Source of the DNA: a virus
Taxonomy: Duplodnaviria > Caudoviricetes
Reading direction: 5' to 3' (one strand)
Length of the DNA stretch: 64,000 bases
IMG/VR virus record: IMGVR_UViG_3300035498_000956
A program made the position numbers and the translations under genes. The notes beneath the pieces are model-generated. The model was given only the letters and a program-made list of their open reading frames with translations, was not told the origin of the DNA and did no database searches. Shown piece after piece: positions 1-39,114 of the stretch; positions within the stretch are counted from its first letter, which is position 1; each line of letters starts with the position of its first letter.

Positions 1-588
1 TATTCAATGGTAAGCCATATTGATGGTAATAAGTATAATAATAATGTTGATAATCTTCAATGGTGTGAAGAACCAATAAAAAAGAATAAAATTAATGCAG
101 TGACTAAAGTTAGTGTTGATAATGTAGAATGGAGACCTCTTAAAGGATTTGAAGGTATATATGAAATTTCTAATAATGGTGTTATAAAAAATTGTGTAAC
201 TAAAAAATTATCTTATGGCACAAAGCGTAATGGATATGTCCGTTTTAATTTACAAGACAAAATGTTTTCTGCACATAGATTAGTTTGGGAAACTTTTAAA
301 GGTGAAATTCCTAAAGATTATGTAATTGATCATATAGATGGTAATCGTTCAAATAATGATTTGAGCAATTTAAGATGTATTACTAATTCAGAAAATATGA
401 TAAATGCTCAAAAGAATGGTCATAAAGGTCAGCATAAAGTTGCTCAATATGACAAAAACCATAATTTAATAAAAGAATGGCCAAGTTTTACTACCGCCGC
501 AAAAGAATATGGTGTCACTTATGCTGCTATTAGTAGTGCAGCTAAGCGACATGGAATGAGTTGCGGATTTTATTGGGAAGAAATATAA
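1..588 (+). CDS. Intron-encoded HNH homing endonuclease (5' partial; HNH-NUMOD4-HNH-NUMOD1 architecture)
   Basis: HIDGNKYNNNVDNLQW; NUMOD4 WRPLKGFEGIYEISNNG; HRLVWETF...DHIDGNRSNNDLSNLRC; C-terminal NUMOD1-like VAQYDKNHNLIKEWPSFTTAAKEYG. Frame is open to the window edge. Confidence 0.9.
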   Translation, partial: YSMVSHIDGNKYNNNVDNLQWCEEPIKKNKINAVTKVSVDNVEWRPLKGFEGIYEISNNGVIKNCVTKKLSYGTKRNGYVRFNLQDKMFSAHRLVWETFKGEIPKDYVIDHIDGNRSNNDLSNLRCITNSENMINAQKNGHKGQHKVAQYDKNHNLIKEWPSFTTAAKEYGVTYAAISSAAKRHGMSCGFYWEEI

Positions 589-908
589 TTCTTCCCTACC
601 AACCCTTGAAAATCATTGGATTGCTGGAAGGTCCTTAAATCTTTATTACCAAACGAAATTAGTAATAATTTCGCGGCTGATTGTAGATAAGGTATGGTGA
701 TAATATAAAGATTTGGAAAATCAGCAGCTAAGTTTCCTATTGATTTTAGGAAAAAAGTTCAACGACTAACAGTCGGTCAAGGACTGTGTAGGATCAAGTG
801 ATCCGAAGTAGTGATACCTTTATGGTTTGATATAGTCTCAACTTCTATAGAGATATAGAGTAGTATAAACTAGTTTAAAAAGTAACGTTTTTAAAAATAA
901 GAAAATTG
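1..908 (+). mobile_element. Group I intron 1 in tape measure gene (5' end outside window)
   Basis: P TTGCTGGAAG, Q AATCAGCAGC, R GTTCAACGACTA and S GATATAGTC (P7 GACTA 764-768 / TAGTC 833-837). Terminal G908 precedes the exon TTG GAT ACA (LDT). Confidence 0.85.
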
Positions 909-1192
909 TTGGATACAAATGAAGCGTTAAGTTTGACAACCAATACCATGAAATTGGCTACTTTATCTGGTAGTGATTTTAGTACAGCAACAGAACAAAT
1001 GACAGCGGCACTTCGTGGATTTAATATGGAAATGGATGAAGGCTCAAGAGTAACAGACGTTTATTCATCTCTAGCTGCAAGCGCAGCGGCAGACGTTGAT
1101 GGTATAGCATACGCTATGAGTAAAACAGCGTCAATTGCTGCGAATGCAGGTATGGACTTTGAAACTACGTCTGCTTTTATTACTCAAATGAT
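909..1192 (+). CDS. Tape measure protein, internal exon
   Basis: TP901-type TMP core sequence LDTNEALSLTTNTMKLATLSG...TAALRGFNMEM...AMSKTASIAANAGMDFETTSAFITQMI. Ends at U1192. Confidence 0.85.
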
Positions 1193-1478
1193 TAACGTGA
1201 CTTAAGTCACAAAAGTCCCTTATAATAGTAATATTATATTGAACCGTGAATATGCGGGAAAGCCCTTAGAGCTTTACTTACTAAGTATTTTATAATATGG
1301 TGAGAGTAATGACCTCAGTATAGTAACAATAGTAAAGATTGGGTAATCCGCAGGGATTGGAATATTTAATTTCAAGCCCTCAACGACTACCAAGCGGTAT
1401 CCAAGTAATAATGGATAATGGTATAGTCTACTCCGACCTTATAGGTGTTAAAGTATCTTGAAAAAGACGGTAGAAAGG
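1193..1478 (+). mobile_element. Group I intron 2 in tape measure gene (ORF-less, 286 nt)
   Basis: Begins TAA after exon U; P ATGCGGGAAA, Q AATCCGCAGG, R CTCAACGACTA, S GGTATAGTC; ends G1478. Removal gives ATG AT|A GAA ACA (MIET). Confidence 0.88.
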
Positions 1479-1508
1479 AGAAACAACTCAAGAAGCGCCT
1501 GAAAACAT
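1479..1508 (+). CDS. Tape measure protein 30-nt micro-exon
   Basis: Encodes (I)ETTQEAPEN(I), bridging ...TQMI to GTAMKTIIARF in frame. Confidence 0.85.
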
Positions 1509-2409
1509 CAAGTACGGTGTCCTTGCAGCATAATACATAAACTGCATTGAATAACTCTTTCTAATTGACTTGGACATCCAGCAGTGGATAACAGGGCGGA
1601 AGCTCATCGAGATTGCTCGAATAAGCACCGTGAACGACTGAGTGAAAGAGGCCCATGTCAATGGGCGTGCGACAGTCTCAACTTTAGTATAACAAAAAGA
1701 AGCTAAAGGCACTATATGTGCAGAATTATAAATTTAATAAGTTTAATATTTAAAGGAGAATTAAATATGATTTATGAACGCAATTCAAATGTTTTTGAGA
1801 AGATTGATTCAGAAGAAAAAGCTTATTGGCTAGGTTTTTTATACGCTGACGGATATGTTGATCCAGAACGAGGTGAATTAATTCTAGGATTGGCAGACAA
1901 AGATAAAGAACATATAGTAAAATTTCAAAACTTTTTAGAAACAAATGCACCATATAAAGATAAAATTAATAATCAAAATAAACCTTATCGTTTTTTTAGG
2001 TTATATGATCAAAAAATCTGTTTAGATTTAGAAAAACAAGGTTTATACAGAAAAAAATCGTTAACTTTAACACCTCAAATGCAAATGTCAAATGAGTTAT
2101 TAATTCATTGGAGCAGAGGATTATTTGATGGCGATGGTAGTATTTATCCACAAAAAAATAGTGTTAATTCAATTAGATATCGAATTAATTTGGTTGGAAC
2201 AGAAGATATATTAAATTATGTAATGAATTTATGGCAAATTAATAAGAAATTAGATAGAAATAGAAGTGTTCCAAAATTTGTAGTAAGTGGAAAACGAGAA
2301 GTAAATAAAATTTTACATATGTTATATGATGATGCTTCTATCTATTTAGATAGAAAATATCAATTGGCGAAAAAAGCTATAGAGCAAAATTTATAATTTG
2401 AAGATATTG
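1509..2409 (+). mobile_element. Group I intron 3 in tape measure gene, carrying LAGLIDADG endonuclease
   Basis: P1 ACAU|C pairs with GGUGU (U-G at the splice site); P7 GACTG 1636-1640 / CAGTC 1673-1677; ends G2409. Removal gives AT|C GGT ACA GCA ATG (IGTAM). Confidence 0.88.
1767..2396 (+). CDS. Intron-encoded LAGLIDADG homing endonuclease (two motifs)
   Basis: YWLGFLYADGYV and WSRGLFDGDGSI motifs, C-terminal LYDDASIYLDRK; AAGGAG RBS before ATG 1767. Confidence 0.9.
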   Translation: MIYERNSNVFEKIDSEEKAYWLGFLYADGYVDPERGELILGLADKDKEHIVKFQNFLETNAPYKDKINNQNKPYRFFRLYDQKICLDLEKQGLYRKKSLTLTPQMQMSNELLIHWSRGLFDGDGSIYPQKNSVNSIRYRINLVGTEDILNYVMNLWQINKKLDRNRSVPKFVVSGKREVNKILHMLYDDASIYLDRKYQLAKKAIEQNL

Positions 2410-5400
2410 CGGTACAGCAATGAAAACCATCATTGCAAGATTTACAGAATTAAAAGAAAATGTATCTGCAGCAGATAGTGAATTTGATGATCTTGATTAT
2501 AATGATGTAGATACAGCATTAAAGTCTGTTGGTATTTCAATTAAAGATGCTAGTGGTCAATTTAGAGATCTAGATGATGTCTTTCTTGAATTGGCAGAAA
2601 AATGGGATACACTTGATAGAAATACTCAACGTTATATCGCAACTACCGCGGCGGGTAGTAGGCAACAGTCGAGATTTATTGCAATGATGAGTGATTATGA
2701 TAGAACACTTGAATTACAAGCAACAGCTTATGAGTCAACTGGACAATCAACTGTACAATTTAATAAATATCAAGATACTGTTCAATATAAAATTGAACAA
2801 ATTCAAAATACTTGGGAGCAATTAAGAGTTTCGTTATTGGATCAGGATGTTTATAAAGATGCTTTAGATTTAGGTAATAAATTATTAAGTGGGATTAAAA
2901 AAGATATTAGTATAAAAGATTTGGCATTTATTGCTGTAATCGGCTTAACAGTTGGTAAAAACTTTGTTTCTCAATTTATTAATGGCATGAAAACAAATAT
3001 TGGAACTGTAGCAGATGTTTTTAACAAACAGGTTACTCCTGCATTTAAAACAGCTGCAAGTACAGCTGGTAATTCTATTAATACAGGAATAGCGACAGTT
3101 TTAAGCAAAAGTAAGATAGGAACAAAAGTTAGTAGTTTAATTTTTTCTGATAATGCAAAAAAACAATTAGAGCAAAATCTTCAACAAGCAACAAGCGCAT
3201 TTAATCAACAAATGGAAAAAATTAATACTCAATTTTTAGAATTAACTAATAGACAAAAGAATCTTTTTTCTTTAGCTGATCAGCCTATTTCTGCTCAAGC
3301 ATTAACTGATTTTTATACTAAATTACAACAAGTTGGTTCTGTTACGGAATTAACAGAAACAGAAGTAAATGAATTATATAAAAAAATGGGTGGAACTGAA
3401 GAACTTACTGCTGGCACTGCAGCATATGATCAGTTCGTTGCAAAATTACAACAAATGGGAGTAGTTCTTCAGCAAGATATAACTAATGAGGAAAATACGA
3501 CTACAGCTTTACGACAATATATTCAAGCAGTCAGAGAAGGGTCAGCATCTAGTCAACAATTACAGCAAGCAACTCAAAATTTAAGTAATTCTTTTGGTGC
3601 TCTTGGTCCAGTAGTTAATAGTGCAGCAAGTGCAATAAAAGGTGCATTTAAATCTTCAATAGGATCTGCAATTACTAGTGGAATTATTACTGCTATTTCT
3701 ACAGGAGATTTTTCAACTGCTTTAAAGACAACTGGTTTAACTTTAGTAACAGGCATGATTTCTCAATTAGTTCCTCAATTTATATCTTTTTTAGGAAAGC
3801 AACTCGCCGCGTTTATCCCTACACTTATTCCTATATTATCAAATCCAGCCGCTCTAGCTGCTATAGCAATAGGAACAGTTGTAGTTGTTGGCTTAGGTGC
3901 ACTAATTTATAATTATTATAAGAAAAACAATGTATGGACTTCTTTATCTGAGAGCTTAGATGCAGAGATTTCAACTATGAAAAAAAATCTTGAAGATTTA
4001 AAAGAAGCTGCCGAAACTACTACATCTACAGCAAAAGCAGATCAACAAGCAGTTTCAACAATGGAGAGTGTAAAAAAAGAATGGGATGAATTAAATAATA
4101 AAATTAGTTTAACTGAGGATGAACAAGAAAGATACAATGAGTTAGTTGAAACAATAAATGATGAATATTCAGATACAGTTGCATATTATGATGAAATGAA
4201 TAATAAATTAATTATTAGTGAAGATTTGTGGAATCAGCAATTAGAAGATGCAAAAGAAATTGCGGAATTATCTCAAGCAATAGCTCTTGGCACTCAGAGT
4301 AATGTAAATGCAGAAGAATATGAACTTGAAAAAACAAAAAATCAAAAAGCTAAACTTCAATTAGAAGGCGGTTTTTATACTAAGACTAATGAGAATGGAG
4401 ATACTACATACACTACAGATATTTATGAGACAGGTACTTCTGCTGATTTTTCAGCTTTACAAGATGTTATCAATCAAGGATTAACAGATTATGATAGTAT
4501 TAGTCAAGCAATAAATGATAATTATTCGACCGCCATTGCCTCAGGTCGTATAGCAGCAGATGATAATAAAGCTGATGAAATTAATCAAATGTTAAAATTA
4601 TTTGACGATTATTATAAAGAGCATGGTACACAAGGAGAAGTTGATCTTTCTTATGTGCTGCAACAAATTTTAGATAATAATCAAGATGCGTTAGAATTTT
4701 ATCAACAAATATTAGACGAGCAAGAGGGAATTGATGACATTATTAATGAAGCAGATGAAGCGTCTAACCAACGATATATAGAATCACAACGTCAAAATTA
4801 TCAAAGTAATATTACTGCAACAGTAGGAGCAACGCAAGCTAGTATGGTAACAAATACTGATGCAGCTGATGAGCTTATTGAATTACAACGTTTATTACTT
4901 GAAGATGATCAAGAGGCAATAGAAAAAACTAGTCAATATATTAATGAAGAATTTAAATCATTAACCAATTTAGATCCAGCAGCACTCTCTGAAGGCTCAG
5001 ATTTTATGTCATCATTAATAAATGCAGAAGATTTTTCGAGTGCGGCCGAAGCTGTAAACTTATCCGAAGAAACATTATCAGCAATCACAGGCTTAACTGC
5101 AGATACATTTGTTAACATGAGAGGAGATGCAGAACATTTAGCAAAACTTATTAGAGATAATACATTTACTCAGTATATTGAAAATGATATGCAAACTGCA
5201 GCAGAAGAAATTCCAGAGCAATTAGTTGATAGCTTTGCTGAAGTAAGTGAAAATATAAGCACAATGTCTCTTGATGAATACCAGCAAAGTATTCAAAAGT
5301 TAGAAGGTCAATATGGAGATGCTTATAAAGACAATATTGAATCTGCAGCTACTGTTGATTATGAACAATATGCAAATATGTTTTTAACACAGAATGAAGG

Positions 5401-8400
5401 CGGACAAATTACTGGAGGATTTTTCTCTAATCTATTTACGTCAGAAGATGCAGCAACTGCTTTTACTGATGCAATAAAAAATGGAGATTTTGAAGCTGCT
5501 GGAGATGCTCTTAGAGATCAAGGCCAGGGTATGTGGGCGGATCTTTTTACTCAAATTGATCCTACAACTATCTCAACAATGTCCAATTTTATTGCTAATA
5601 ATGTTACTGGAGATGAAGCTCAAGCACAAGCCAAAGAAAAACTTCAAACAATGTTGACTAATATATTAAATGACGAGGATAGTGTATTATCAGAAAATGA
5701 ATTAGATTTGATATTAAATGCAAATGTTAACTGGGACGAAGTGAATCCTTTAAATGTAGAAGAAACAATGGAAGACTTGGCCGAACAGCTAATGACAGAT
5801 TCAAGTGGTGCTCTTAGTTTTAATGAAGCTTTAGAAAAAGTTAAATCAGTGTTTGGAGATATTAATGATTTAGTAGGTTCATTTGAATATGGATCAGCAA
5901 CTGCTTTTAATACATTAATCACATCAGCAAAAGAAGCAGGAGAAACAATGGTTACTCAAGCTGATACAATTACTTCAATAATGGATGAGATTGATACGTC
6001 TATTGGCTTAACTAGAGAACAATTAAACACTCTCGATGAAGCTGGATTAAGTGATGTGTATGAATTAGATATTGATACTGGTAAATTTGAAATTAAAATG
6101 GAGAAAGTGCAAAATCTATTTTCAGAAACAATTGCAACAAATGAAGAAGCATTGAAAAAAGAATTAGGAACTGAACAAGAACGTTTAAATACTGTAACAT
6201 CTCAAATTCAAGAATTAGATAATAAAATAGCAAATTATAAAAAATTAGGTATGGATACTACTGAATTAGAAGAAGAAAAAACTGAGTTACTAAAAGAACA
6301 ATCGACTTTAACAGATCAAATTGCAGAACGAACAGAAGAGGCAGAAAAAGAAATCTCATTAGAATTTCAAAATCAAGTTTCACTACTTGAAGCAATAAAA
6401 GAAACAATTCAAGAGGCACAAGATGCAGTAGATGAAGCGGAAAAAACTTTAAAAGAAAAACAAGAAGCATATGATGAAGCAAAAGAAGCAGCAGACAATG
6501 CAGCAGCAGTACGAGAAAAAGCTATTGCTGATGCATATGAAGAAGAAGCTAAAACGATTAAAGAAGCAGAAGAAGCTGCAGAGAGTGCTTTAAAATCATT
6601 ACAAGATGCGTATGATACTTTAGCAGATGCCCAAGAAAAACTTGCAGAAGCTCAAGAAGATTTATATGAAGCAATTCATGGTTCTGCTGATTGGGATAGC
6701 GGCCTTGAACGATTAGATTCAGCAAATCAAATGTTAACTGGATTAAATACTCGTTTAAAAACCTTAAAATCAAATATGGAAGATGCTTCAGATTTGGATA
6801 GTATGGTTTCTAGTACAGAAGCCTATATTGCGGCACAAAAAGAAAAAATGAATTTACTTGAAGCAGAAAAACAATCTACACAACAAAGTTTAGATAATAT
6901 GTTATCTGACCTTTATAGTAATGACGCATATGCCAATGTTCGTGATTCAGTTCAATTCACTGTTGATGGACGAATGATGCTTGACACCAGTGCTCTTGAA
7001 AATGCAGATGCAAGTGATGCTATTAAAGATGCATTAGTAAAATTACAAGCAGAATATAATAAAGAAGTAGACTCAATGGCAACTGCAACTGAAGAAATGG
7101 AAGCTCTTGAAGATGAATGGGAGAACTATTATACAACAGCATTAAAAAATTATATATCAACTCAAGATAAAGTAGTTAAAATTTTAAAAGAAAATGCTCA
7201 AGCAGAGATAGATGCAGTACAAGATAAATATGATAATTTAAAAGAGGCAGATGATGATTATATCAGTGCTCTACAGGATGCAATTCAGAAACAACGTGAT
7301 TTAAGAGATCAAGCAAGTCAATATGAAGAATTAGCAACAAAAGAAAAGAAATTATCTTTAATGTCAAGAGATACCTCTGGAGCTAATCAAAAAGAAGTTG
7401 CAACACTTGAGGATGAAGTTGAAAACACTCGTCAATCATTACTTGATAAAGAAGTTGATAATTTAATTTCCTCTATGCAAGAAATGTATGAAACTCAACA
7501 AAAGGCAAGAGAAGAAGAAATTGAATATTTAAACGCTTTGATGGAAACTACTGATTGGTGGATTCAAGCTAATGAAATTATTCAGGGATGGACAGATTCT
7601 GCTGATGCTGTTGAATGGTTTATGAGCAATGATTCATCTGTTCAAGACATGAGTACTGAAGCTCAAGTTCAATATGCACAAGAAGCTGAAACTGATTATA
7701 CAAATGCTATTAGTCTTGAAGCTGTTCAACAAGTATTAGCTGATGTTGGAGGTAGCATTACAGATGCAATTCAAGCAGATGTGGATAGTGTTAATGAAAT
7801 ACTTACAACATTAAATATTAGTACTGAAGTAGGAAACCAAGTGCTAGAAGCTGGTGTAGTTGCTAGAGATGAGGCTATAGAAACAGCTCAAACAGCTATT
7901 GAATCTGCACAAGAAACAGTTACTAATGCTGAAGAAAATTTAGTAAAAATGCAAACTGCTTATCAAGAAGCTTTGGATGACGTGACTACAAAAACACAAG
8001 AAGCTGCAGAAACTAGAGCACAAGCAGTTAAAGATGCTTATGATACAGAGTCGACTACTTTAGAAGCATTAACCACTGCAGAACAAGATTTGTCAACAGC
8101 TCAAGCAGATCTTGATACTGCTACTCAAAATTTAGATGAAGCATTGAAAGGATTAGGTACAGATGCTGCGACTGTAATATCTGGTATTGATGAACAAATT
8201 CGTCAATTACAGAACAATTGTGTGCAGTATATACAAGATTTAGAAAATCAAAGGATGTCCGAAGCTTCAGAACGATATTACGTTAGTGTTAATGGAAAAG
8301 ATGATTTGGAAAGCCTACATAGTTTAGAAGCTTCTGGTACTCCTCTTAGTAATGAAAACTGGTTTACTAGTGAGCAAGAGGCACAAGATTTTATCAATTC

Positions 8401-8818
8401 TAATGCACAGTATTTAAGTTCTCAAGGAAAAAATCTTTCTGTAAAACATTACGCATCAGGTGGTATGGTAGACTTTACTGGTCCAGCTTGGGTAGATGGT
8501 ACAAAATCAGAACCAGAAGCATTCTTAGACCCAGAAGATACAAGTAACATCGCAGCATTAGCTCAAGCACTACGTTCAATGAATCTTTCAACTCCACTAG
8601 TTAACCAAACAGAATCTCCTATATCCAACATTTCCTCAACTCTCAATAACGTAACCAATAACTCCAACACATCATATACAGGAGGAACTGTTAGTATCAA
8701 TCTTAACATAGAATCAATTTCAAGTGATTACGATGTAGAATCAATGTTAGACTTAATGGAAGAACGTATTAACGAAGCATCTAATCCAATTGGATCTTCT
8801 GTTATCCTTCGTAAATAA
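2410..8818 (+). CDS. Tail tape measure protein, main exon (spliced product within window 2240 aa)
   Basis: GISIKDASGQFRDLDDVFLELAEKW and AAGSRQQSRFIAMM TMP motifs, hydrophobic central segment, long acidic coiled coils, C-terminal YASGGMVDFTGPAWVDGT; followed by Dit and Tal genes. Confidence 0.92.
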
Positions 8819-8831
8819 AATATAACTTAAC

Positions 8832-8867
8832 TGAGTGAAGATTTATCTAAAATCTTCGCTCATTTTT
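8832..8867 (+). terminator. Intrinsic terminator after TMP
   Basis: TGAGTGAAGATTT / AAATCTTCGCTCA stem followed by TTTTT. Confidence 0.65.
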
Positions 8868-8881
8868 GGAGGTGGAAATAA

Positions 8882-11197
8882 ATGGCAGATTTCATTCATT
8901 TTCGTTTTGGAAACTACCATTCAAAAGATTTAAACTTAATCGTAACAAGCTCAAGCAATTTCTATTCTCAAGATTTATTACCATCAAATACTGATACAAC
9001 AACTGATATTAGCGGCAGTAATGGTAAGTATTATTTTGGCTCTATTTTTAGTACAAGAGAATTTACTTTAAATCTTGCGTTTGATAGTATTACCGAAGAT
9101 AATTTACGATTAATCTCTCAAATTTTTGGAAATGATAAACCACAAGATTTAGTTTTTGATGAACGTCCTTATAAAACTTATAAAGCAAAAATTAAATCTA
9201 AACCAACTTTTAAATATGTTTGCTTTTTAAATCAAGATGGAGAAAGAGTCTATAAAGGTACTGGCACACTCAATATGATTTGCTATTCTCCATTTGCTTA
9301 TTGTTTTAATAAATACATAGTAAGATCAGCAGATTATTACATTCATACTCCGCCAGAAAAAGCAATTAAAGAATGGTACAATACTGAAATTAATATTCAA
9401 CCATGGTACGGCGGCTATCCAACATATGATCAAGTGAAAAAAGGAGAACTCTATTTCAATACTCCTTCTGGTACTAGATCAATTATTGACGTAAGACGTT
9501 ATTGGGATAACATACCAGAATGGGCGCACAGCAGTAGATTATTAACTACTCCTACTCTTGATTATGATCAGGAATTAATGTATGCTCCTCAATGTTCAAA
9601 GGTTGGATATTTAAATTTAGATAAAGGCTTTGATAAAACAATAGACACAAATTTATTAACCAATCGCCTTTTTGTATATAATCCTGGTGATTTACCTATT
9701 GATTTTGAATTAAATTTCAACAATCCTGGCCTATCTACATTTTTTCAAAAACATAAAGATGCAAATGGGCATAAACGTTTTAGAATTAGGCGTTTAAATG
9801 TTCAGCGTTTAGGTCTAGCAGATGCAGTTAATTGGTGTGGATTGACAACTCAAGATTTAAATGATAATGTGACTTATAAATATGATAATAAGTATTTTAA
9901 ACGTGTTGGAGATATAGATGGAAGCAGTATTGACAGATTGGTTAGTAATAATGAAATTAAATCTTTGTCTGTTGATGATTTACAAGATACAGTTGCGGAA
10001 ATGTTATCTGGACATGAATCTTTTGATGATTTAGGACCTTGTCATCCTAAACATTGTTATATGATTGAACCAATTCCAAGAGAAAAATTAGGAGATTATA
10101 TTAGAACTTTTTGTTATCAAACCGCAAAATCTAATACAGGTTTTACTAATCAATTAAATGAATTATCAGCCGCGGCGGATCGATATGAAGAATTGTATGA
10201 TTTGTGTATAACAGAACAAGAAAAATTTCAGTTATATTGGGAAACTTTAATTAATACCGTACTTAAATTCTATGGCAATACTAGCTTTTTTAAGAGTAGC
10301 ACTCAACAATCAATGTACACTAACTATACTATTGATAGTTTCATTAATGATTATCTATTTGATCCACCAGAATATTTAGTTGATTCAGAGGATGCTGCAT
10401 ATGGTCAATTTATTTTTAATTATAATAATCTTCCTCAATACTACACTGGAGATTATCTTGAAATTGATATAACCGATTTGTCAATAGATGAAGGAGGAAA
10501 TGCTTCAGACCTACCAGAGCAACTAATACTTGACACGGAAAACAGAATGTTGTATAATATAATAGAAGATAATACCAATACTTATTATGGTACAAAATCT
10601 AAAAACATTCTCAATGATTATATAACTAAAGGTCACTGGTTTCAACTACCTCCTGGCTGGAGCGTAATTGAAATTATTCCAGTATTAGATCAAGATATTA
10701 CAGATGATAAAACATGGAAAGCTGCACGAGAGTATTATTGGGGTTATAATAACAATAGTACAGAATATGATGCAGATCTTATGCGCGCGTACTATAATTG
10801 CGTATATGATTTAGCAAAAGATAATTTTCTTACTTATGCAAAATGGAATTTAGGATTAACATCTAATGATTATTCTAATCAAGAATTAATTCGTCACTGG
10901 TTAGCTGGATGGGAGGAATATAATGAAAAGAATGAAGATAATAAAAATTTTGTAGAATCATTATATACACAAAAGCTCCATAGTTTAGAAGTTCAATTCC
11001 TAAAAACGATTCAATCCTATTGGTCAATGTTAACTGGTCAATCAACAGGAAAAGGTGACAATAAACTTTCTGGTACAATCAGTGAATGGTTTCAATATGC
11101 AGAAAACTATATTTGGGAATTATTCCCACCTACATATTGGGGATATAATCAATTTTTAGACGGCGCAACAATTAAATATACACCATTATATTATTAA
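8882..11197 (+). CDS. Distal tail protein (Dit), evolved type with insertions
   Basis: Directly after TMP; N-terminal FRFGNYHSKDLNL...GKYYFGS...REFTLNLAFD...LVFDERPYKTY...CYSPFAY; VYNPGDLPIDF; ends KYTPLYY. Confidence 0.75.
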   Translation: MADFIHFRFGNYHSKDLNLIVTSSSNFYSQDLLPSNTDTTTDISGSNGKYYFGSIFSTREFTLNLAFDSITEDNLRLISQIFGNDKPQDLVFDERPYKTYKAKIKSKPTFKYVCFLNQDGERVYKGTGTLNMICYSPFAYCFNKYIVRSADYYIHTPPEKAIKEWYNTEINIQPWYGGYPTYDQVKKGELYFNTPSGTRSIIDVRRYWDNIPEWAHSSRLLTTPTLDYDQELMYAPQCSKVGYLNLDKGFDKTIDTNLLTNRLFVYNPGDLPIDFELNFNNPGLSTFFQKHKDANGHKRFRIRRLNVQRLGLADAVNWCGLTTQDLNDNVTYKYDNKYFKRVGDIDGSSIDRLVSNNEIKSLSVDDLQDTVAEMLSGHESFDDLGPCHPKHCYMIEPIPREKLGDYIRTFCYQTAKSNTGFTNQLNELSAAADRYEELYDLCITEQEKFQLYWETLINTVLKFYGNTSFFKSSTQQSMYTNYTIDSFINDYLFDPPEYLVDSEDAAYGQFIFNYNNLPQYYTGDYLEIDITDLSIDEGGNASDLPEQLILDTENRMLYNIIEDNTNTYYGTKSKNILNDYITKGHWFQLPPGWSVIEIIPVLDQDITDDKTWKAAREYYWGYNNNSTEYDADLMRAYYNCVYDLAKDNFLTYAKWNLGLTSNDYSNQELIRHWLAGWEEYNEKNEDNKNFVESLYTQKLHSLEVQFLKTIQSYWSMLTGQSTGKGDNKLSGTISEWFQYAENYIWELFPPTYWGYNQFLDGATIKYTPLYY

Positions 11198-38835: not shown

Positions 38836-38907
38836 CTAGAGAGGTAGGATTCGAACCTACGTATCATAAAATCAAAATTTATTGTCTCACCACTTGACTA
38901 CTCTCTA
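38836..38907 (-). tRNA. tRNA-Gln(TTG)
   Basis: TAGAGAG acceptor stem, ATAAA-TTTTGAT-TTTAT anticodon arm, GTAGG-TTCGAAT-CCTAC T arm; no encoded CCA. Confidence 0.9.
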
Positions 38908-38930
38908 ATTTCTCTTGATTTTCTATAATT

Positions 38931-38959
38931 ATTATATCATAATCTATAGGAAAAATCAA
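38931..38959 (-). promoter_or_regulatory. Sigma-A-type promoter for tRNA-Gln and ssb
   Basis: TTGATT-17 nt-TATAAT with extended TG. Confidence 0.7.
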
Positions 38960-38964
38960 TTAAG

Positions 38965-39037
38965 TGAAACTGGGGAGATTTGAACTCCCGACTTCCAAAT
39001 TAAAAGTTTGGCATTCTTCCGACTGAATTACAATTTC
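38965..39037 (-). tRNA. tRNA-Lys(TTT)
   Basis: CCAAA-CTTTTAA-TTTGG anticodon arm, GGGAG-TTCAAAT-CTCCC T arm. Confidence 0.9.
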
Positions 39038-39043
39038 ATTTAA

Positions 39044-39114
39044 AGCAAGTAGAGGTAATCGAAACCTCATCTTGTGCTTGGGAAGCACACATTCTACCGT
39101 TGAACTATACCTGC
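39044..39114 (-). tRNA. tRNA-Gly(CCC)
   Basis: GCAGGTA acceptor stem, TGTGC-TTCCCAA-GCACA anticodon arm, GAGGT-TTCGATT-ACCTC T arm. Confidence 0.88.

What the first reader, a model, noticed from the sequence alone, without database searches (positions are those of the whole stretch)
1..2422. Tape measure gene interrupted by three group I introns, with a 30-nt micro-exon
Seen: introns <1-908, 1193-1478 and 1509-2409 each end in G (the two with visible 5' ends also follow an exon U), and removal reconstitutes ...FITQMI-ETTQEAPENI-GTAMKTIIARF in frame. Known: phage group I introns cluster mainly in DNA-metabolism, terminase and lysin genes. Three in a tape measure gene, two only 30 nt apart, is unusual. 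The micro-exon is a multiple of 3 and both 5' exons end in AT, so skipping it would stay in frame and give a TMP 10 aa shorter (inference: possible alternative splicing).
Basis: partly seen in the sequence, partly recalled or inferred. Interest (0 to 1): 0.7.

Follow-up and report, generated by a model that had tools for sequence, protein, structure and literature searches.

The report
Three self-splicing introns in tape-measure gene
The tail-length (tape measure) gene of this large uncultured phage is cut by three self-splicing group I introns, two only 30 bases apart; the call is correct, but introns in this gene are already published, so this is a dense new example, not a new kind of thing.

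Summary
Observation confirmed. Removing <1-908, 1193-1478 and 1509-2409 restores ...FITQMI-ETTQEAPENI-GTAMKTIIARF. This product is colinear, without a gap, with 19 intron-free tape measure proteins (TMPs).

Intron 1 reaches Rfam's group I cut-off (51.5 bits, cut-off 50). Intron 2 matches the whole model (41 bits, E 2.4e-9). Intron 3 gets no Rfam hit, but folds into the canonical P1-P9.1 order. Against an 87%-identical copy in another phage, all its stem changes are compensatory. Introns 1 and 3 carry HNH and LAGLIDADG homing endonuclease genes; intron 2 has none.

The "unusual" premise is outdated. Group I introns in TMP genes were described in 2008 (Bacillus cereus prophages, three sites). 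Vibrio phage ICP1's TMP has three introns, shown by RT-PCR.

Exon skipping as a functional isoform is unlikely: all 19 relatives keep the ten micro-exon residues.

New context: three related phages use about ten insertion sites in about 200 codons, five of them within 45 nt. One relative has seven introns with 8-, 9- and 27-nt exons.

Earlier notes of this scan report multi-intron TMP genes in at least 8 other genomes.

Verdict: new member of a known kind, moderate interest.

The parts
1..908 (+). Intron 1, 3' part only. Its 5' splice site lies an estimated 400 nt upstream of the window, judged from the L025 homologue.
   Evidence: It ends in G908. The exon resumes at L of the conserved QQG|L(D/K/E)TNE. 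A homologous intron with a homologous HEG sits at the same site in relative L025.
1..588 (+). Homing endonuclease gene inside intron 1 (HNH_3 + NUMOD4), cut at its 5' end by the window edge
   Evidence: Pfam HNH_3 E 1.6e-26 and NUMOD4 E 2.1e-09. The 269-aa homologue in L025 (6259-7068) has the same domains.
575..860 (+). Ribozyme core (P3-P9) of intron 1
   Evidence: Rfam RF00028 Intron_gpI: 51.5 bits (gathering 50), E 2e-12, model positions 24-253. nhmmer family profile E 1e-61 (this intron was one of the profile's seeds).
909..1192 (+). TMP exon of 284 nt, LDTNEALS...FITQM(I)
   Evidence: Pfam PhageMin_Tail positions 30-124, E 9e-15. Colinear with intron-free TMPs.
1193..1478 (+). Intron 2, an ORF-less group I intron of 286 nt
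   Evidence: Rfam Intron_gpI 41 bits (below gathering 50), E 2.4e-9, whole model 1-253 at 1198-1450. P1 has the U1192-G1215 wobble. It ends in G1478, and an in-frame stop lies at 1203-1205. blastn matches the lysin-gene intron region of Twort-like staphylococcal phages and the Moonbeam terminase intron.
1479..1508 (+). 30-nt micro-exon encoding (I)ETTQEAPEN(I)
   Evidence: It aligns without a gap to ETT[RQ]E[AS][AP]ETA in 18 relatives and to SRTREGASTI in Perkons. E, T, T, E and E are nearly invariant.
1509..2409 (+). Intron 3, 901 nt. The ribozyme is at 1509-1725, the endonuclease gene sits in the 3' extension, and 13 nt follow it before the splice site.
   Evidence: Manual model P1, P2, P3, P4, P5, P6/6a/6b, P7, P8, P9, P9.1: 56 bp, with the U1508-G1517 wobble. 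Against the 87%-identical L027 copy, 4 of 23 differences fall in stems, and they form two compensatory G-C to A-U pairs. No helix is broken (Fisher p 6e-4). No Rfam hit and no blastn hit in phage genomes.
1767..2396 (+). LAGLIDADG homing endonuclease gene (209 aa, two motifs) with its own ribosome-binding site AAAGGAG at 1752-1758
   Evidence: Pfam LAGLIDADG_3 E 4.9e-08, LAGLIDADG_1 weak. 89% identical copies sit in the same intron in L026/L027.
2410..8818 (+). Last TMP exon, (I)GTAMKTIIARF... to the stop; 2,136 codons, uninterrupted
   Evidence: ORF 2420-8818 is open. PhageMin_Tail positions 151-201. Homologues are annotated as tape measure proteins.

Best explanation
This is the tape measure gene of a large uncultured siphovirus-type phage. 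Its conserved N-terminal domain is interrupted by three independent mobile group I introns.

Mechanism, inferred from the anatomy:
- The gene is transcribed as one pre-mRNA.
- Each ribozyme pairs the last bases of its 5' exon with an internal guide sequence (P1, with a U-G wobble at the cleavage site).
- Each uses external guanosine for the first step and its terminal G for exon ligation.
- The exons are joined at 1192^1479 and 1508^2410, plus one junction ending at 908^909.
- The mRNA then encodes one continuous TMP of roughly 2,700 aa.
- In-frame stop codons 4 and 8 codons into introns 2 and 3 keep ribosomes out of the ribozyme cores.

The HNH (intron 1) and LAGLIDADG (intron 3) endonucleases are translated from their own start sites. 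They cut intron-free alleles of related phages during co-infection, so the introns spread by homing.

ORF-less intron 2, 30 nt from intron 3's site, most likely travels by co-conversion with intron 3 or is simply inherited.

All three introns are constitutive. The micro-exon is a by-product of two independent insertions into one highly conserved stretch, not a regulatory device.
For: Shown here:
- Exact in-frame reconstitution of a conserved motif, colinear with 19 intron-free TMPs.
- Rfam group I hits for intron 1 (51.5 bits, at or above the cut-off) and intron 2 (41 bits, E 2.4e-9, whole model).
- A canonical helix order in intron 3, with only compensatory stem changes against an independent copy.
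- U at -1 for both visible 5' sites and a terminal G for all three introns.
- Intact HNH_3/NUMOD4 and LAGLIDADG genes.
- Presence/absence polymorphism typical of mobile introns: 18 relatives have none of the three. L025 has intron 1's homologue but not introns 2 or 3. L027/L106 has intron 3's homologue but not introns 1 or 2.
- The insertion sites lie in the top ~10% most conserved 21-nt windows of the domain.
- No terminator-like site, and no excess of promoter-like sites over shuffled sequence, in 1-2600.

From papers: TMP introns splice in ICP1 (PMC10448857), and they occur at three sites in B. cereus prophage TMPs (PMC2504315).
Against: - There is no RNA or protein data for this uncultured phage.
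- Intron 2 is below Rfam's gathering score.
- Intron 3 is not recognised by Rfam at all. Its support is a hand-built model plus one related copy, with only two compensatory events.
- P1 of intron 2 is only 4 bp and very weak.
- I found no convincing P10 for either intron.
- Intron 1's 5' splice site is outside the window.
- Homing activity and co-conversion of intron 2 are inferred, not shown.
Confidence: 0.9

Rival explanations
1. Regulated or functional alternative splicing: the 30-nt micro-exon is sometimes skipped (1192^2410), giving a second TMP isoform 10 aa shorter with its own role.
For: Skipping keeps the frame. [quoted passage not shown] It is the dominant product for the SIOphi terminase (PMC11878797).
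Against: The ten residues belong to the most conserved TMP motif and are present, without a gap, in all 19 homologues. Ten residues are under 0.4% of a ~2,700-aa ruler. Intron 3's guide sequence pairs better with its own 5' exon than with the upstream exon end (-1.7 against -0.2 kcal/mol). The relatives L025 and L027/L106 lack intron 2 (and L025 intron 3 as well), so in them this 30-nt stretch is not a separate exon that could be skipped as a unit.
Confidence: 0.04
2. Exon skipping happens, but only as a non-functional by-product of two ribozymes working 30 nt apart.
For: Same precedents as above. Both 5' exons end in AU, and the P1 helices are short and weak.
Against: Nothing in the sequence speaks for it directly. 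It cannot be tested without RNA.
Confidence: 0.3
3. The gene is broken: endonuclease genes and decayed intron remnants have split the TMP into pieces that are no longer joined (a pseudogene, or separately translated fragments).
For: Intron 2 is below the Rfam cut-off and intron 3 has no Rfam hit.
Against: A 30-nt exon cannot be translated on its own. The junctions restore the frame and the conserved motif exactly. The 6.4-kb downstream exon is fully open. The ribozyme stems are kept by compensatory change. A TMP is essential for a tailed phage (general knowledge).
Confidence: 0.03
4. Assembly artefact: a metagenomic chimera placed intron-like sequences into the gene.
For: The source is an uncultured, assembled genome, and no whole genome is held for it.
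Against: Intron 3 with its endonuclease gene sits at the same site in two contigs from other samples (L026, L027). Intron 1 with its HEG sits at the same site in L025. The boundaries are exact to the base.
Confidence: 0.01

Closest known systems
[quoted passage not shown] 2023, PMC10448857)
   Same: - Same gene class and same number of introns.
- Closely spaced introns: my profile of this window's intron family hits three segments of the ICP1 locus, leaving internal exons of at most about 64 and 80 nt.
- An HNH_3-type intron endonuclease.
- Variable endonuclease content between isolates.
- Splicing was shown there by RNA-seq and RT-PCR.
   Different: - ICP1 is a myovirus of a Gram-negative host.
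- tblastn shows no similarity between its TMP and this one at the insertion region.
- ICP1 has no LAGLIDADG intron.
- The window's internal exon is shorter (30 nt).
- Nothing here has been tested experimentally.
TMP-IVS1, IVS2 and IVS3a/b group I introns in Bacillus cereus-group prophage tape measure genes (Tourasse & Kolsto 2008, PMC2504315)
   Same: - Group I introns of the phage IA type at three sites of a TMP gene.
- Related introns adapted to different sites.
- Most lack a complete endonuclease gene.
- The sites lie in conserved parts of the gene.
   Different: - In the strains named there, I read at most two introns per gene.
- Whether any site coincides with those found here could not be checked, because the figure is not held.
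- Those are temperate prophages of a different TMP lineage.
Staphylococcus phage Twort orf142 (tail tube gene; three group I introns, exon skipping) and Bastillevirinae polymerase and terminase genes (PMC11878797)
   Same: - Several self-splicing introns in one phage gene.
- Small internal exons.
- A documented precedent for exon skipping.
- Part of intron 2 resembles introns of Twort-like phages and of phage Moonbeam at the DNA level.
   Different: - Different genes.
- Three is the most introns per gene stated in the passages of that paper I read; the relative L027/L106 found here has seven.
Fungal mitochondrial cox1-type genes with many group I introns and micro-exons
   Same: Stacked group I introns with LAGLIDADG genes, leaving exons of a few bases (from my own knowledge; PMC12308204 appeared in a literature search but was not read).
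   Different: Organellar rather than viral. Splicing there is often helped by maturases.

Membership tests
Group I self-splicing intron (Rfam RF00028) | Conserved catalytic core (P3-P8, with P7 as the guanosine site) recognised by the curated covariance model | tested here: met
   Intron 1: 51.5 bits, at or above gathering 50, model 24-253.
Group I self-splicing intron (Rfam RF00028) | The same feature, for intron 2 | tested here: inconclusive
   41 bits, below gathering 50, but E 2.4e-9 over the whole model 1-253. It aligns along its whole length, at 47-61% identity, with five introns of this TMP family; three of them reach Rfam's cut-off (window intron 1 and two L027 introns), one is below it and one was not scanned (alignment and identities).
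Group I self-splicing intron (Rfam RF00028) | The same feature, for intron 3 | tested here: inconclusive
   No Rfam hit at E<=10. A hand-built P1-P9.1 model with the P3/P7 pseudoknot around P8 gives 56 bp. Two compensatory pairs and no broken helix against the L027 copy. Subgroup not assigned.
Group I self-splicing intron | 5' exon ends in U, paired with G of the internal guide (P1) | tested here: met
   U1192-G1215 for intron 2 and U1508-G1517 for intron 3. Intron 1 cannot be tested because its 5' end is outside the window.
Group I self-splicing intron | Intron ends in G (omega G) | tested here: met
   G908, G1478, G2409.
Group I self-splicing intron | Removal restores the host gene exactly | tested here: met
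   Gap-free colinearity with 19 intron-free homologues.
Group I self-splicing intron | Self-splicing with guanosine | not testable with these tools
   Needs in vitro transcription or RNA from an infection.
Mobile intron with homing endonuclease | Intact endonuclease ORF inside the intron, with presence/absence polymorphism at a conserved site | tested here: met
   HNH_3/NUMOD4 and LAGLIDADG ORFs. Empty sites in 18 relatives, and differently occupied sites in L025 and L027.
Phage tape measure protein (Pfam PF10145 PhageMin_Tail) | Domain match, very long open frame, place in the tail module | tested here: met
   PF10145 on both sides of the introns. A 2,132-aa ORF downstream. Homologues are annotated TMP.

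The most novel reading that the evidence does not exclude
The conserved N-terminal domain of the TMP in this group of large gut/rumen phages is an extreme homing hot spot.

Three related phages together use about ten different insertion sites in about 200 codons, five of them within 45 nt of the ETTQEAPENIGTAMK motif. One relative (L106/L027) carries seven, perhaps eight, group I introns there, leaving exons of 8, 9 and 27 nt.

If all of these splice, it is among the densest intron packings known for a viral gene. It would raise real questions:
- How do ribozymes 8-9 nt apart fold and choose their splice sites?
- Is there an order of splicing?
- Does occupying a site protect a phage from the endonuclease of a neighbouring intron during co-infection?
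Probability: 0.55. Interest if true: 0.6.

Novelty: new member of a known kind. Interest (0 to 1): 0.4.

Why it matters
For annotation: without the introns this TMP is called as fragments plus a truncated 2,132-aa ORF, and the 30-nt exon is invisible to gene callers. Rfam's fast filters also missed all three introns when 2.6 kb or the whole 64-kb window was searched. They appeared only in slices of about 300 nt.

For biology: it adds a well-supported case to the growing picture that the TMP, an essential and locally very conserved structural gene, is a favoured landing place for homing introns. The set of differently occupied relatives found here is good comparative material for studying intron competition and micro-exon splicing.

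Tried and rejected
- Rfam on the whole window and on 1-2600 gave no group I hit. This was a filter effect, not absence.
- Megablast of 1-4000 against phage genomes found nothing useful. An exact-word search for the window's own contig in IMG/VR found nothing. No whole genome is held, so the upstream exon and intron 1's 5' end stay unknown.
- Intron 3: no Rfam hit and no blastn hit. A covariance model built from it and its L027 copy found no further relatives among 70 loci, apart from one weak, unconvincing hit in L076. So covariation support rests on one comparison.
- I looked for P10 pairings for introns 2 and 3 and found none convincing.
- I tried to compare insertion sites with the B. cereus TMP-IVS sites through plasmid pBWB404, but it did not come up in a tblastn of the plasmid collection. 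Site identity is therefore unknown.
- The Landthaler & Shub 1999 paper is not held; it is cited only through PMC11878797.
- Rejected: group II intron (no reverse transcriptase gene was seen in the ORF lists and Pfam scans, a 286-nt ORF-less element is too short, and two of the three introns match Rfam's group I model) and intein (stops in the host frame shortly after each 5' junction).
Full report
**What is there**

- G908 is followed by TTG GAT.
- The exon 909-1192 ends in AT.
- 1193-1478 ends in G.
- The next exon, 1479-1508, is exactly 30 nt and ends in AT.
- 1509-2409 ends in G.
- The frame from C2410 stays open to 8818.

Joining the pieces in a script gives an in-frame product reading ...FITQMIETTQEAPENIGTAMKTIIARF....

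Pfam places PhageMin_Tail (PF10145) positions 30-124 on the 909-1192 exon and positions 151-201 just after 2420. The missing profile stretch is therefore what the micro-exon and the first codons of the last exon supply.

The ORF 1-588 is an HNH_3/NUMOD4 endonuclease. The ORF 1767-2396 is a two-motif LAGLIDADG endonuclease with its own Shine-Dalgarno sequence.

**Are the junctions right?**

The phage itself is not in the phage-genome collection searched or in IMG/VR. A search of IMG/VR with the downstream exon gave 19 related loci.

In 18 of them the spliced product aligns as one uninterrupted segment from its first residue across both junctions. A multiple alignment shows no gap in any of the 19 intron-free homologues, including Psychrobacillus phage Perkons, between residues 85 and 120.

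The stretch created by splicing, Q[IM]IETT[RQ]E[AS][AP]ETAGTA[ML]KT[IV]IARF, is more conserved than the domain as a whole. The window's identity to its relatives there is 69%, against 57% over the first 200 residues.

The start of the 909 exon matches L of the conserved YYQQG|L(K/E/D)TNE. This places intron 1's 3' splice site at 908|909.

**Are they group I introns?**

Rfam found nothing on the whole window or on 1-2600, but this is a filter effect.
- On a 311-nt slice, intron 2 matches RF00028 over the whole model (1198-1450, 41 bits, E 2.4e-9; gathering score 50).
- On a 351-nt slice, the part of intron 1 downstream of its endonuclease gene scores 51.5 bits, above the cut-off (575-860, model 24-253).

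Intron 2 also shares DNA similarity with two known intron regions: the one that splits the lysin gene of Twort-like staphylococcal phages, and the 3' end of an annotated terminase intron of Bacillus phage Moonbeam. Its P1 helix has the U1192-G1215 wobble.

Intron 3 has no Rfam hit and no blastn relative in phage genomes. It nevertheless folds into the canonical order: P1 (with U1508-G1517), P2, P3, P4, P5, P6/6a/6b, P7, P3', P8, P7', P9, P9.1. That is 56 base pairs, with the P3/P7 pseudoknot enclosing P8.

Two IMG/VR contigs (L026, L027) carry the same intron at 87% identity, with an 89%-identical LAGLIDADG gene. Of the 23 differences in the ribozyme, 19 fall in unpaired positions. The other four form two compensatory G-C to A-U exchanges, in P2 and P8. 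No helix is broken (Fisher p 6e-4). I did not assign a subgroup.

In-frame stop codons lie 4 and 8 codons into introns 2 and 3 (1203-1205 and 1531-1533), as is usual for phage introns. The region has no terminator-like site and no excess of promoter-like sites.

**Relatives: a hot spot**

The two closest relatives have introns too, but mostly at other sites.

L025 has:
- the homologue of intron 1, with a homologous HNH gene, at QQG|L;
- a 297-nt ORF-less intron at GGT|ACA, only 4 nt from the window's intron 3 site (Rfam 43.3 bits, E 5e-10);
- a third intron with an HNH gene at AAGSR|QQ.

The L106/L027 phage has no intron at the sites of the window's introns 1 and 2, but seven others.

Its exons are 121, 83, 8 (GAAAACAT), 9 (CGGTACGGC), 217 and 27 nt. 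Joining them gives a product colinear with both the window's product and intron-free L024.

The two introns flanking the intron 3 homologue there reach Rfam's cut-off (62.3 and 55.9 bits).

Six of these introns, including the window's introns 1 and 2, align along their whole length at 45-67% identity. A profile built from them finds further copies in the relatives, but nothing else in the 64-kb window.

Together the three phages use about ten sites in about 200 codons, five of them within 45 nt. The five clustered sites lie in the top ~10% most conserved 21-nt windows of the domain among 17 intron-free relatives. This fits the known preference of homing endonucleases for conserved targets.

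Some boundaries in the relatives cannot satisfy both the -1 U and the terminal G rule (L025 site 1, L025 third intron, L027 after the 9-nt exon). I leave this unexplained.

**Mechanism**

The best reading is three constitutive, independently acquired mobile introns. This is inferred from the structures, and splicing itself is not shown.

The endonucleases would drive homing into empty alleles during co-infection. Intron 2, which has no ORF, would be carried along by co-conversion or plain inheritance (inference).

**Exon skipping**

The arithmetic is right and there are precedents. Twort orf142 and the SIOphi terminase skip an internal exon (PMC11878797).

But no homologue lacks the ten residues. 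The relatives L025 and L027/L106 lack intron 2 (and L025 intron 3 as well), so this 30-nt exon does not exist in them. Intron 3's guide also pairs better with its own exon.

A functional short isoform is unlikely. A low level of skipped by-product is possible.

**Comparison with what is known**
- Tourasse & Kolsto 2008 described IA1/IA2 introns at three sites of B. cereus-group prophage TMP genes (PMC2504315).
- Barth et al. 2023 call the TMP a 'frequently interrupted' gene. [quoted passage not shown]
- My intron profile hits three segments of the ICP1 locus, leaving internal exons of at most about 64 and 80 nt.
- Introns in capsid and minor tail genes are also known (PMC3706429).

So three introns in a TMP gene, closely spaced, is a known pattern. 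The window adds a new member, with a shorter internal exon and a LAGLIDADG intron of a family that Rfam does not recognise.

Earlier notes of this scan list multi-intron TMP genes in at least 8 other genomes. I did not check those.

**Verdict**
- Observation confirmed.
- Interpretation right in its core, overstated in its novelty, and unlikely in its alternative-splicing addition.
- Interest 0.4.

The relatives' seven-intron gene with 8-9-nt exons is the most notable by-product of this work.

Noticed in passing
L027:430-5948 and L106 (reverse strand), IMG/VR contigs 3300043105_000250 and 3300043080_000160: A closer relative's TMP gene carries seven group I introns within about 165 codons, with exons of 121, 83, 8, 9, 217 and 27 nt. 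The joined product is colinear with intron-free TMPs. A stop just upstream of the first mapped exon hints at an eighth intron.
   Followed up: partly
L025:6089-7382, 7695-7991, 8250-9790: Relative L025 has three introns at QQG|L, GGT|ACA and AAGSR|QQ. For the first and third, and for one L027 intron, no pair of boundaries gives both a U before the 5' site and a terminal G while restoring the frame.
   Followed up: partly
L027:731-1711 and L106:3706-4467 (minus strand): Two intron-borne ORFs in the relative are not classical homing endonucleases. One is a 326-aa protein with no Pfam match. The other is a 253-aa protein with zinc-ribbon and DUF723-type matches.
   Followed up: no
window 1-64000 (method): Rfam cmscan missed all three introns on the 64-kb window and on a 2.6-kb slice, at both the gathering and the E-value setting. 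Two of them appeared only in slices of about 300-350 nt. Long-window Rfam scans therefore under-report phage group I introns.
   Followed up: yes
L109 (Vibrio phage ICP1, NC_015157 38800-43300, reverse strand 1336-3103): A profile built from this window's intron family hits three segments of the ICP1 TMP locus (E 1.5e-13, 1.2e-05 plus 0.012, and 8.2e-12). This matches the three published introns and implies internal exons of at most about 64 and 80 nt.
   Followed up: partly
L003 (Microcystis phage MaeS, MT362618) 1886-3630: The TMP homologue is annotated as two separate hypothetical proteins with a roughly 450-nt gap. This may be another unannotated intron.
   Followed up: no
L006:3001-3238 (Clostridioides phage pCD1602_4, CP069348): An unannotated stretch matches 79% of intron 2 at 67% identity, probably another group I intron.
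   Followed up: no
window 1555-1561 and 1752-1760: In the minimum-energy fold, the 5' strand of intron 3's P3 pairs with the ribosome-binding site of the LAGLIDADG gene instead of with P3'. This is a possible link between folding and endonuclease translation, or it may be chance.
   Followed up: no
window 38836-39114 (minus strand): Three tRNA genes in a row (Rfam 62-69 bits).
   Followed up: no
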